Of a stretch of DNA of 64,000 nucleotides, positions 7,034-49,717 are shown piece by piece. The translations under genes and the position numbers were made by a program. Below the pieces are notes generated by a model. The model was not told where the DNA came from. It did no database searches and saw nothing but the letters and a program-made list of their open reading frames with translations. Numbering within the stretch: position 1 is the first letter of the stretch; the number at the start of each line of letters is the position of its first letter. The stretch comes from Octopus vulgaris (taxonomy: Eukaryota), in assembly GCA_951406725.2 (NCBI GenBank), contig OX597819.1, positions 40,734,001-40,798,000 on the forward strand. The letters run 5' to 3'.

Positions 7034-7252
7034 ATAAGGGGGTGATGAAAAGTTTCTGGATTTGGGTAAAAGAAAATACAGGAGGATCAGTTAATTATGA
7101 TTTTATTCAACACATTCCCTTCTCAGATTCACATATTTATTGCAGTGATCCTTCAGTTTTCTAAGCCCTGTAAAAGAACTCGGAAAGTTGGGCCTGCAAC
7201 CAGGCCTTTTGTGATACCCTTAAAACTTGGAACTTTTTAATATTCCCTTGTA
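7034..7252. mobile_element. mariner-derived MITE
   Basis: Imperfect TIRs aagggggtgatgaaaagttt / aactttttaatattcccttg; right end duplicated at about 7270-7340. Confidence 0.55.
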
Positions 7253-7436
7253 CCAAACAAGCATTGAGGAAAGTTGGGTCCCCAGCCAGGCCTTTTGCAG
7301 TACCCTTAAAACCAAGAACTTTTCAGCACTCTCTCACACCAAACAAGCATTAAGGTCAATGCAATCGACTTAGCACCTCCCCTCAAATTGCTGACATTGT
7401 ACCAAAATTTGAAACCAATATTTTTTGATCTAGTTC

Positions 7437-28323: not shown

Positions 28324-28604
28324 CACGCGTCCTCATAAAGAGGCCACGTCCCCATAAAGAGGCCACGGTCCTCATAAAGAGGCCACGGTCCCCATAAAGA
28401 GGCCACAGTCCTCATAAAGAGGCCACGCGTCCTCATAAAGAGGCCACGGTCCTCATAAAGAGGCCACGGTCCCCATAAAGAGGTCACGGTCCTCATAAAG
28501 AGGCCACGGTCCCCATAAAGAGGCCACGGTCCTCATAAAGAGGCCACGCGTCCTCATAAAGAGGCCACGGTCCTCATAAAGAGGCCACGGTCCTCATAAA
28601 GAGG
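28324..28604. repeat. Minisatellite, about 20-bp unit x14
   Basis: Unit gtcc(t/c)cataaagaggccacg, with occasional 1-bp length variants. Confidence 0.95.
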
Positions 28605-39520: not shown

Positions 39521-40540
39521 CGCAGTCGGTTACCTGGTTTCCATGGCGTATATATAGCCAAGAAAAGAACATTCTCTTTGAACGGGGCGCCAGTCCGTCA
39601 CAAGAGTGAACTACAGCAACGTGAAATGAAGTATTTTGCTCAAGAACTCAAAACACTGTCTGGTCCGGTGTTCGCGAGAGCAAAATCATAGCCTCTAGGC
39701 CATGCACATTCACTAGAATGCAGGGACTATTGTCCGAAAATCGGAATGTTTGGGCTCTCTACTTCTGATCAAAGACATTTAATATGTGACTATCTTTGTT
39801 GAGATTCATTTTTGAATTTTACGTTTTACATATTCAGAGTTTTATCTTATGTCCAAGGTTTTGTTAGATCGTGTATGCATCGTTGTTTGTCAGGTTATTT
39901 AATATCACTTCAATATCATTTGCTTAGCTGCTTTGTGTGTATCACTTTAATATCGTCTGCTTAGTTGCTTTGTGCGAACGATAGTAGAATATTTGGTCTG
40001 TGTGTAAGGCGGCGAGCTGGCAAAAACATTAGCACGCTGAGCAAAATGCTTAGCGATATTTCGTCTGTCGCTACGTTCTGAGTTCAAATTCCGCCGAGGT
40101 CGACTTTGCCCTTTCATCCTTTCGGGGTCGATTAAATAAGTACCAGTTACGCACTGGGGTCAATGCAATCGACTATTTCCGTTTGTTTGTCCTTCTTTGT
40201 CCTCTCTGTGTTTAGCCCCTTGTAGGTAGTAAAGAAATAGGTATTTCGTCTGTCGTTACGTTCTGAGTTCAAATTCCGCTGAGGTTGACTTTGACTTTCA
40301 TCCTTTCGGGGTCGATAAGTACCAGTTACGTACTGGGGCCGATGTAATCGACTTAACCCGTTTGTCTGTCCTTGTTTGCCCTCTCTGTGTTTAGCCCATT
40401 GTGGGCAGTAAAGAAGTAAGAATCGTTAACACGTCGAGCAAAATACCTTTCGTCTGCCTTCATGCTCTGATTCAATTTGGTCTGAGTTTGACTTTGCCTT
40501 TTATCCTTTCAAGGTCGATGGAACACCCTTTCAGAATTCA

Positions 40541-47388: not shown

Positions 47389-47779
47389 CTACCAGTATCG
47401 CCCGGCGTTGCTTGGGTTTGTTTCGACCCATTAGAATTGGAATTTTTGAAAAGTAAAAATTTTGCATTACGTAGCTTTTTATTCTCTTTAAGTGGACTTT
47501 TTCTGGTTGAAATACACCGAAAAATGGCGACACAGCAGTCAAAACATCGTAAAAAATGGGGATTTTTATAGAAAAAAAAGCACCTTATTGATGTAAATAA
47601 TTTTTGGTCTTAACATGGTTCAATTTGAATTTTATCTTCTACGGAAGGAAGAGCAAGCCTTCTTCTATCATACTCTCAATTTTGGTCAACTTGCGCTGCA
47701 GGGTCCGGGGGAGATAGTGTTAGTTGAAGGCTACCAAACCTGCCACGCACAGACAAATTCAACTTTATATATATATAGA
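47389..47779 (-). mobile_element. Non-autonomous Helitron
   Basis: A|TCTATATATAT 5' end; 3' cccaagcaacgccgggcgatactgGTAG|T, nearly identical to the 16561-16588 terminus. Confidence 0.75.
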
Positions 47780-48175
47780 TTTACTAATCATTTTAAACAA
47801 AGCCAGCTTACATCATACAATTTTCCATACAAATAGATTCCTAACATCTATAATTGTTTGTCCGTCATTCCTTCTGCTCTCTCTGTCTCTTTCTCTGTTT
47901 GTCTTTATTTCTTTCTCTTCTTTTCTCCCCCACACTCTCTCTATATATTGTTGCTATTATGTTAAACTGTCGTATGTCCAAATTTGGCCAAATGTGTTTT
48001 TTTTTTCTATAGCCGGTTCTTTTAGTCAAACTATCGTATCTCATGCTGCTTCAGATGCCAAGATAGCAAAAATTATCAAAGTGTAGTAAAACGGTTTTGC
48101 TACGGAATGACGAAATAGTTTTTTCGTTTTCTGAAAAAGCAACGCTTTGGACTTACGACACTTTTGTATAACAGC

Positions 48176-48217
<42 letters not shown>

Positions 48218-48476
48218 ACGGTGTCGAGCCTTTCTGGTGACGTCGATGTTCGCCTGGGGCTAAATGCAACAGTAACACCCCCACCACCCTGCCCTGTCCC
48301 TAGCCATATTCAGATGGCTTTAGTCCCTTATGTTATCGAGCAGTTACTGTCTATATCCCTTTTAGAGAATTATTATTGCTTTCGAACAGATTTTCGAAAT
48401 CAGCAAATGTATTTTGCTTGAAAATCTATATAAGAAAATCCTGCAGAGAGAGAATTCGTCGAGGAAGCGGAGGCCT

Positions 48477-48528
48477 ACCACACGCCGATGATAGGCAATA
48501 CACCTTGAAACCATGGTCCGTGTGTGGT
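48477..48528 (+). ncRNA. Type I hammerhead ribozyme (variant core), array unit 1
   Basis: Stem I acacg/cgtgt, core CCGATGA, stem II t-agg-caataca-cct-t, GAAA, palindromic stem III ACCATGGT, GUC triplet at 48516-48518. Confidence 0.75.
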
Positions 48529-48836
48529 TTCCGCTTCATCGGGGAATTACCTCCCTTTGCAGGTTAAGGGCACCGTGACGGTGTCGAGCCTTTCTGGTGA
48601 CGTCGATGTTCGCCTGGGGCTAAATGCAACAGTAACACCCCCACCACCCTGCCCTGTCCCTAGCCATATTCAGATGGCTTTAGTCCCTTATGTTATCGAG
48701 CAGTTACTGTCTATATCCCTTTTAGAGAATTATTATTGCTTTCGAACAGATTTTCGAAATCAGCAAATGTATTTTGCTTGAAAATCTATATAAGAAAATC
48801 CTGCAGAGAGAGAATTCGTCGAGGAAGCGGAGGCCT

Positions 48837-48888
48837 ACCACACGCCGATGATAGGCAATACACCTTGAAACCATGGTCCGTGTGTGGT
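48837..48888 (+). ncRNA. Type I hammerhead ribozyme (variant core), array unit 2
   Basis: Identical to unit 1; predicted cleavage after 48878. Confidence 0.75.
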
Positions 48889-49175
48889 TTCCACTTCATC
48901 GGGGAATTACCTCCCTTTGCAGGTTAAGGGCACCGTGACGGTGTCGAGCCTTTCTGGTGACGTCGATGTTCGCCTGGGGCTAAATGCAACAGTAACACCC
49001 CCACCACCCTGCCCTGTCCCTAGCCATATTCAGATGGCTTTAGTCCCTTATGTTATATATATATATATATATATATAACGGGAAGCTTTATGAAAATAAA
49101 CAAAAGACGAAGGCAGGTGGAGTATAAACAAACAATTGTATTAGTATGGCGCTCAGGAATATAAATAAAACAAGT

Positions 49176-49211
49176 CTTTTACGTTTCGAGCCTACGCTCT
49201 TCAACAGAAAG
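49176..49211 (-). ncRNA. Minimal hammerhead-like motif in a Penelope-type terminal repeat (element about 49078-49330)
   Basis: cttt-CTGTTGAA-gagc-gtag-gctc-GAAACGTA-aaag; core has one extra nucleotide, stem III reduced to the ACGT palindrome. Confidence 0.55.
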
Positions 49212-49717
49212 ATACACAGAAAGGAAACACAGAAAGAAAAAAAATGCGTGCAGAGGCTAGCGGATCAACATGGCGATCTGATTTCGGCCAGAAGTCAAAG
49301 ATCAAACGTGAGACACAAGAGCGAAATTAGGGGAGATGATTGGGTTAAATGACCTCGCCCCAACATAAGAGTGTGTGTGTGTATGAGAGAGTATGTATGA
49401 GAGAGTATGTAGTGCGTATGAGAGGTCTGGACGTGTGTATGTATATATGATGTGATGTGTAAAGTCGGATGGTGTAGTGTAGAGAGAGGAGATGAGGGGG
49501 AACACTATACATATATTTACTACACACACACACGCATTTGTGTGCACGCATGTGTGTGTATACGTGTACATATATGTTTATATATAGATATATATATTGG
49601 CCTGCTCGCTTAGCCAGCGGTGTGGCCTCATTTCAAGGCTAAAACAATGTGAAGCCCATTGTGACCAGCGATGTGTAGCCTGGTCGGTCACGTGATATAT
49701 ATATATTTGTATGTATG

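What the first reader, a model, noticed from the sequence alone, without database searches (positions are those of the whole stretch)
48216..49056. Retrozyme-like 360-nt hammerhead tandem array: candidate self-processing circular RNA element
Seen: a non-coding 360-bp unit repeated about 2.3 times, almost identical between units, bounded on both sides by (TA)n. Each full unit has a type I hammerhead fold. Stem I extends into a long imperfect rod (gaagcgga/tccgcttc, aattc/gaatt, cctgca/tgcagg). Established: tandem hammerhead repeats of this size in metazoans (non-LTR retrozymes) self-cleave to unit-length RNAs that circularise, and they are linked to Penelope-like elements. Inference: cleavage after 48518 and 48878 would release an exact 360-nt monomer. 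The non-integer copy number and near-identity fit a recent insertion made by rolling reverse transcription of a circular RNA. I do not recognise this as a described family.
Basis: partly seen in the sequence, partly recalled or inferred. Interest (0 to 1): 0.9.

Follow-up and report, generated by a model that had tools for sequence, protein, structure and literature searches.

The report
Retrozyme inserted by Penelope-type copying
This 360-base repeat is one of hundreds of young, scattered copies of a parasitic element with a predicted self-cutting RNA fold, and the shape of its insertions suggests that a Penelope-type retrotransposon enzyme likely copies it round and round from an RNA circle, which would make the unexplained spread of such animal elements testable.

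Summary
In detail: 2.3 near-identical 360-bp units between (TA)n, each with a type I hammerhead fold, predicted cuts after 48518 and 48878. It is a young family (793 exact hammerhead copies genome-wide) of a known class, animal non-LTR retrozymes. What is new is the insertion footprint. 3' ends fall at two fixed internal sites 44 nt apart (unit positions ~121 and ~165), not at the cleavage site. 85 of 93 two-armed insertions are inverted pairs with one end of each kind, the Penelope-like element (PLE) 'tail' signature. Arms reach 15 units. Three variants tested occur in every covering unit of one insertion and nowhere else in the assembly, pointing to a unit-length, likely circular template. 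The genome holds a young, intact Neptune-type PLE with the same footprint, and a relative is fused to a PLE fragment in one insertion. Not shown: cleavage (core is a weakened U4C variant; no Rfam hit), the circle, or the exact partner. Some arrays suggest multi-unit templates. The scan had no look-alike sequence, but noted similar ends on a ribozyme-free tandem element in another genome.

The parts
48216..49056 (+). One-armed retrozyme insertion: two full 360-bp units plus 121 bp, 5'-truncated at unit position 1
48179..48215 (.). (TA)n, left half of the target
   Evidence: 94 of 112 family insertions have (TA)n on both flanks
49057..49077 (.). (TA)n, right half of the target; shared tail-to-tail with the neighbouring element
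48479..48524 (+). Type I hammerhead 1: core CCGAUGA (U4C), U.U at base of stem II, palindromic stem III; predicted cut after 48518
48839..48884 (+). Type I hammerhead 2; predicted cut after 48878
48440..48563 (+). Extended stem I rod around hammerhead 1
   Evidence: z -7.15
48519..48878 (+). Predicted 360-nt monomer / circle
   Evidence: inferred from two cuts
49054..49056 (+). Short 3' end site S (unit position 119-121), inferred start of reverse transcription; exact base blurred by overlap with (TA)n
   Evidence: 526 exact S-(TA)n junctions
48697..48740 (+). 44-nt 'tail' (unit position 122-165) ending at the long 3' end site L; also at 48337-48380. Internal in this copy, terminal in the inverted arm of most other copies
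   Evidence: 756 exact L-(TA)n junction patterns (1 of 19 unpaired ones inspected was a chance match)
48302..48319 (+). Small hairpin just upstream of site S, conserved in families A, B and C (also 48662-48679 and 49022-49039); candidate RT recognition element
   Evidence: role inferred

Best explanation
This is a young, dispersed, non-coding 360-bp element with a predicted dimer-type hammerhead in every unit, which is likely cut from multimeric transcripts, likely closed into a circle, and likely copied into (TA)n sites by the reverse transcriptase-endonuclease of a Neptune-type Penelope-like element. Shown in the DNA: high copy number, (TA)n targeting, two fixed 3' ends 44 nt apart, inverted S+L arm pairs, scattered 5' breaks, arms of up to 15 units, and one haplotype per insertion. 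Inferred steps: (1) read-through transcription of an array; (2) cleavage after GUC, probably with two neighbouring hammerheads pairing through their palindromic stem III; (3) ligation to a 360-nt circle; (4) the PLE enzyme nicks both strands of (TA)n; (5) one nick primes at site S (119-121) and the enzyme rolls round the template; (6) in about four of five events the other nick primes at site L (165), giving an inverted arm with the tail; (7) the two cDNAs, or cDNA and target, are joined at a scattered break. The window copy is a one-armed S event of 841 nt, about 2.3 turns.
For: Copies: 637 candidates; 793 exact 42-nt hammerhead cores, control 0. Fold under selection: across 14 copies of three related families 94% of cells pair, 6 of 12 pairs change on both sides, slid controls 21-53%; pair 3-8 covaries C-G/U-A; the common loop III forms CATG, CTAG, TCGA are all palindromic; stem III self-duplex -12.6 kcal/mol. 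Ends: 43 of 66 listed S ends have a divergent L end within 8.4 kb; of 114 insertions 93 are two-armed and 85 of these S+L; in the 40 chosen blind to their ends 27 of 32 two-armed are S+L and 8 of 8 one-armed end at S. PMC11167929 shows a PLE RT nicks and extends both strands and starts at two internal sites whose spacing is the genomic tail; PMC8557442 lists inverted 5'-truncated copies, a 30-40 bp tail and (TA)n preference for PLEs. Unit-length template: within-insertion unit difference 0.39 vs 4.37 between insertions; three variants tested genome-wide lie only in one insertion each, in 7 of 7, 8 of 8 and 6 of 6 covering units (with 60, 63), two of them in both arms; no pile-up of 5' breaks at the cut site (4 of 209 at 304-305, one of them spurious, other positions reach 6). 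Partner class: intact 781-aa RT-GIY-YIG ORFs, about 25 of 58 scored copies at 98-100% without stops, ending in (TA)n with a short and a tailed end; a family-B insertion is fused to a mid-ORF PLE RT fragment between two (TA)n runs (L145).
Against: No cleavage, circle or expression shown; the four runs laid are contigs only guessed to be RNA. U4C 'considerably decreases activity in vitro' (PMC3088659); the axolotl hammerhead with the same U.U base cleaves weakly as a monomer (PMC7229834); 8 of 9 Xenopus retrozyme dimers did not cleave (10.64898/2026.07.22.740005); hammerhead cleavage was dispensable for PLE insertion in vitro (PMC11167929). 6 variants in 30 long arrays are shared by a minority of units, two of them at the same unit index in both arms (L025 T241C, L200 G307T), and L207 and L257 are mosaics: multi-unit templates, template switches or arm-to-arm conversion occur. 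No PLE pLTR homologous to the unit was found and no family-A/PLE chimera among the loci held, so the specific partner is not identified. The tail stem-loop is not significantly stable locally (z -1.2) and not kept in family B.
Confidence: 0.72

Rival explanations
1. Same PLE-driven insertion, but the template is an uncleaved linear multimer transcribed from a genomic array; the U4C hammerhead is weak or dispensable and no circle is involved.
For: U4C and U.U weaken the core (PMC3088659, PMC7229834). Unprocessed RNA was the dominant PLE substrate in vitro (PMC11167929). Index-matched variants in both arms of L025 and L200 and mosaic arrays fit a multi-unit template.
Against: Variants present in all 6-8 units of one insertion and nowhere else need a one-unit bottleneck at some step. 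Repeated 5' truncation would shrink arrays, yet dispersed insertions reach 15+9 units (L050). Stems and palindromic loop III are kept across three families.
Confidence: 0.15
2. The unit is the pseudo-LTR of an autonomous PLE not sampled here, and the arrays are its truncated or recircularised ends.
For: 24 of 57 Xenopus retrozyme families match repeat termini, 21 of the 22 matched elements being PLEs (10.64898/2026.07.22.740005). 6136 GIY-YIG candidates exist and only 150 were scored.
Against: None of 114 family-A insertions leads into a PLE ORF. pLTRs of the PLE families seen show no homology to the unit.
Confidence: 0.07
3. The mobilising enzyme is another microsatellite-targeting retrotransposon (R4/Dong or Tx1 clade; their microsatellite targeting is recalled, not tested).
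For: Dong-R4 and L1-Tx1 are among the most numerous recently active elements in an octopus repeat survey (PMC13282606, table passage).
Against: [quoted passage not shown]
Confidence: 0.04
4. A satellite grown in place by unequal crossing-over from a single unit, as proposed for vertebrate retrozymes in 10.64898/2026.07.22.740005, or an assembly artefact.
For: Period-2 variant patterns in L016 and L252 could be local duplications.
Against: Hundreds of dispersed loci with the same two ends and inverted arms; both arms carry the same haplotype; 12-bp target duplications at two non-(TA)n sites (L192, L253).
Confidence: 0.02

Closest known systems
Animal non-LTR retrozymes (PMC7229834: coral, mussel, axolotl Rtz_353 / HHR_Amex2)
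   Same: 150-450-bp tandem units with one type I hammerhead each, non-coding, GC below 50%, stable self-paired monomer, no LTR; 2-bp stem III with tetraloop and U.U at the base of stem II as in HHR_Amex2.
   Different: U4C core. Fixed two-site ends, inverted arms and (TA)n targeting are not reported in the parts I read; those papers only propose PLEs as partners. Circles were shown there, not here.
Penelope-like elements (PMC11167929 Poseidon PAc; PMC8557442 Neptune, Naiad)
   Same: Two internal 3' ends separated by a tail, inverted 5'-truncated arm, AT-rich or (TA)n target, type I hammerhead with palindromic stem III.
   Different: No ORF; hammerhead is canonical-sized with a long stem I rod; tail 44 nt against 30-40; no detectable homology to the pLTRs seen in this genome.
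Non-autonomous Chlamys elements such as MRC1 (PMC8557442, passage)
   Same: Non-coding PLE parasites with multicopy head-to-tail insertions.
   Different: They resemble their autonomous partner at the 3' end and belong to a clade described as lacking canonical hammerheads; this element has a hammerhead and no found homologous partner.

Membership tests
Animal non-LTR retrozyme | Tandem units of 150-450 bp | tested here: met
   360 bp; arms up to 15 units
Animal non-LTR retrozyme | Type I hammerhead motif in every unit | tested here: met
   core variant U4C; Rfam models do not detect it
Animal non-LTR retrozyme | Non-coding, no LTR, GC below 50% | tested here: met
   no ORF of 110 aa or more; 40% GC in the 2-kb bin holding it; ends are not LTRs. 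PBS and PPT were not searched for
Animal non-LTR retrozyme | Stable self-paired monomer fold | tested here: met
   z about -5 linear and circular
Animal non-LTR retrozyme | Dispersed multicopy, mobile | tested here: met
Animal non-LTR retrozyme | Target duplications longer than 4 bp when present | tested here: met
   12 bp at L192 and L253, 2 of 3 loci without (TA)n on either side; unreadable inside (TA)n
Animal non-LTR retrozyme | Self-cleavage of the RNA | not testable with these tools
   needs an in vitro assay
Animal non-LTR retrozyme | Expressed as unit-length circular RNA | tested here: inconclusive
   2 of 4 runs give a 390-nt contig (one closed 360-nt cycle), but contigs of guessed RNA cannot tell a circle from a tandem
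PLE-mobilised element | Two 3' ends separated by a short tail | tested here: met
   S 119-121 and L 159-167
PLE-mobilised element | Inverted 5'-truncated arm | tested here: met
   93 of 114 insertions
PLE-mobilised element | Homology to the pLTR of an autonomous PLE | tested here: not met
   none among the PLE loci held; sampling incomplete
Autonomous PLE | RT plus GIY-YIG ORF in the element | tested here: not met

The most novel reading that the evidence does not exclude
These insertions record the whole missing mechanism of animal retrozyme spread: a Neptune-type PLE enzyme nicks both strands of (TA)n, primes in fixed order at two sites on a 360-nt RNA circle that shares no sequence with the PLE's own ends, and rolls up to about 15 turns; the young intact 781-aa RT-endonuclease family in the same genome is the enzyme, so circle and enzyme can be reconstituted. 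Bolder still (about 0.1): the insertion-private variants arose in the RNA itself, so circles change before they insert.
Probability: 0.4. Interest if true: 0.82.

Novelty: new member of a known kind. Interest (0 to 1): 0.62.

Why it matters
The retrozyme papers I read propose, but do not show, that PLE enzymes copy retrozyme circles into tandem arrays; the 2026 preprint calls the mechanism unresolved and leans on local expansion. This family is young enough that its ends and haplotypes are intact. They give base-level predictions (start sites 119-121 and 165, (TA)n target, opposite strands, more-than-unit products) and a candidate enzyme with many intact copies. A positive test would show target-primed rolling-circle reverse transcription of a natural circular RNA and explain the PLE tail and inverted arm as ordered twin priming.

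Tried and rejected
Rfam: no hammerhead hit. ARAGORN: no tRNA. Pfam family PF26215 not in the library. Sequencing runs: no RNA holder listed on record; 14 holders are guessed RNA. Four were laid: contigs only, depth about 2-250 on the array, no ends or joints that inform on a circle; not used as evidence for expression level. Idea that the tail is one conserved hairpin: seen in the circular fold but not significant locally and absent in family B; rejected as a general feature. Idea that 5' breaks cluster at the cut site: not supported. Search for a homologous autonomous pLTR: none; long 'ORFs' next to L063 are microsatellites. Dimeric-circle reading of period-2 variants: fits L252 (units -2 and -4), fails in L016 at unit -5; left open. 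G307T is not private: 2 of 4 genome matches lie elsewhere. Dropped before counts: L036 (chance 18-nt match) and a second, separate insertion in L069. Literature searches for this family or for retrozyme insertion ends found none; Dfam and Repbase could not be checked; the supplement of PMC7229834 and those of the preprint could not be read and may list related sequences; PMC5785218 is not held.

Full report
Observation. The array is as described: 48216-49056, period 360, 2.3 copies, 99% matches, (TA)n on both sides, one substitution between units. Each full unit has a type I hammerhead arrangement with C17 at 48518 and 48878, inside a rod that folds far better than shuffles (z -7.15). The monomer between the cuts is 360 nt and folds at z about -5. 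The core reads CCGAUGA (U4C), stem II has a U.U at its base, and stem III is 2 bp plus a palindromic loop. The active monomer fold lies 7.4 kcal/mol above the minimum, while two stem III strands pair at -12.6 kcal/mol, which favours the dimeric form. Rfam does not detect the motif.

The fold is under selection. Older subfamilies (85-95% identical) and two sister families, B (2621 candidates) and C (2724 candidates, 362-nt period), align with the unit. Over 14 copies, 94% of cells in the 12 hammerhead pairs are paired and 6 pairs change on both sides; slid controls give 21-53%. The copies fall into about three lineages, so these are few independent events, and the shuffle control does not correct for relatedness. 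Pair 3-8 switches between C-G and U-A, and the common loop III forms are CATG, CTAG and TCGA, with family C one pair shorter but also palindromic. U4C also occurs in the hammerhead of a PLE family of this genome (L108, L110). PMC3088659 (passages) says U4C lowers activity considerably in vitro yet permits viroid infectivity.

A young dispersed family. The window lies at G000:C6 in a 2.8-Gb genome; its repeats look octopus-like to me (recall, no call shows it). The unit has 637 candidate regions, with 239 matches in the 40 scored, and 793 exact copies of the 42-nt hammerhead core.

Fixed ends and inverted arms. 3' ends sit at unit position 119-121 (S; 526 exact junctions) or about 165 (L; 756), both running into (TA)n; the cut site is position 303/304. 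Of 66 S ends listed on C1 and part of C2, 43 have a divergent L end within 8.4 kb. Of 114 insertions examined (40 chosen blind to their ends, 74 through end or motif patterns), 93 are two-armed inverted structures, 85 of them S+L and 8 with one off-site end; 21 are one-armed, 15 S and 6 L. Two of the 8 are near-exceptions (L188: 121+125; L184: 165+158). In the blind 40, 27 of 32 two-armed are S+L and all 8 one-armed end at S. Both flanks are (TA)n in 94 of 112, and two non-(TA)n sites show 12-bp duplications. In the haplotype with G at position 120 the terminal copy carries the target's A (L050, L053, L215), so the true S end can be 119. Family C has the same layout with ends about 60 nt apart. 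PMC11167929 (parts 1-2 of 4) shows that a PLE enzyme nicks and extends both strands and starts at two internal sites whose spacing is the genomic tail. PMC8557442 (passages) lists inverted truncated copies, a 30-40-bp tail and (TA)n preference. I infer ordered twin priming: S first, L second.

Template. Arms cross the cut site repeatedly, up to 15 units in one arm and 9 in the other (L050). 5' breaks show no peak there (4 of 209 at 304-305, one spurious), so cleaved linear monomers are not the usual template. Units differ by 0.39 substitutions within an insertion and 4.37 between insertions. All three insertion-wide variants tested against the genome occur in one insertion only: 7 matches, 8 and 6, in every covering unit; the first two span both arms. 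This needs a one-unit bottleneck, which a circle supplies. Against a pure monomer circle: in 30 long arrays, 6 variants are shared by a minority of units, two at the same index in both arms; L207 and L257 are mosaic and L218 has an arm-specific variant. Multi-unit templates, two template molecules or arm-to-arm conversion must also occur. Donor loci may be missing from this single assembly.

Partner. A GIY-YIG search gives 6136 candidates, 150 scored. One family has a 781-aa frame with RT and C-terminal GIY-YIG domains and a cysteine cluster before the endonuclease, as PMC8557442 describes for Neptune and Nematis; I built no tree. About 25 of 58 scored copies are full-length, stop-free and 98-100% identical. 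It ends in (TA)n with a short or a tailed end, paired in inverted form in L106 and L083 (101 exact tailed ends). Its pLTR has a minimal U3-A8 hammerhead but no homology to the unit. In L145 a family-B array is fused to a mid-ORF RT fragment of another PLE family between two (TA)n runs, best read as a template switch in one event; that family's pLTR is not homologous either. This is one case, in a sister family; none was found for family A. So the partner class is well supported, the specific partner only a candidate chosen for matching youth.

Expression. No holder is on record as RNA. Two of four runs laid give a 390-nt contig, one closed cycle of the unit, but this cannot tell circle from tandem or RNA from DNA.

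Comparison. It meets every testable feature of animal non-LTR retrozymes (PMC7229834, parts 2-4 of 6; PMC7761336, passages; PMC4209133, parts 1-2 of 4). Those papers suggest PLEs as partners from co-occurrence; 10.64898/2026.07.22.740005 (parts 1-3 of 5) adds pLTR homology in Xenopus, found cleavage in 1 of 9 dimers, and favours local expansion. None of the parts read describes two-site ends, inverted arms or insertion-wide private variants for retrozymes; searches found no description of this family, and an octopus repeat survey has no occurrence of 'hammerhead' or 'ribozyme' (PMC13282606, passages). The scan has no look-alike sequence but noted PLE-type ends on a ribozyme-free tandem element in another genome (unchecked).

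Verdict. Real; a new member of a known class; valuable because its footprints turn the open question of retrozyme mobilisation into a defined experiment. Interest 0.62.

Noticed in passing
window 49078-49235, - strand (motif 49175-49212): Neighbouring high-copy repeat with a minimal PLE-type hammerhead-like motif (A6U variant, palindromic stem III) whose 3' end abuts the same (TA)n tail-to-tail; contigs over it reach depths of thousands in all four runs laid.
   Followed up: partly
L145:880-1733 (G000:C10): Chimeric insertion: PLE RT mid-ORF fragment fused 5' to more than one unit of retrozyme family B, between (TA)n runs.
   Followed up: yes
L121-L150 and L151-L180: Two further retrozyme families in this genome: B (canonical CUGAUGA core, about 90% identity, 2621 candidates) and C (U3-A8 core, 362 nt, about 97% identity, 2724 candidates).
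   Followed up: partly
L104:2268-5968: Young Neptune-type PLE with an upstream frame of up to 479 aa overlapping the 781-aa RT-endonuclease frame across a T run, suggesting a frameshift (inferred).
   Followed up: partly
L108:3490-6690, L110: Another PLE family whose pLTR hammerhead has U4C and U.U at the base of stem II, with inverted short and tailed ends.
   Followed up: partly
L252, L016: Variants in alternate units (period 2), which would fit a dimeric circle in L252 but not fully in L016.
   Followed up: partly
L030 flanks: The sequences beyond the two (TA)n runs are about 13-bp inverted repeats of each other.
   Followed up: no
window 28324-28604: 20-bp minisatellite, 13.9 copies, 92% matches.
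   Followed up: no
window 40057-40415 and 7182-7355: Tandem dimers of 179 bp and 86 bp, probably copies of interspersed repeats.
   Followed up: no
window 47400-47770 and 47960-48178: Two more repeat-like stretches left of the array that end in TA runs; possibly other (TA)n-associated elements.
   Followed up: no
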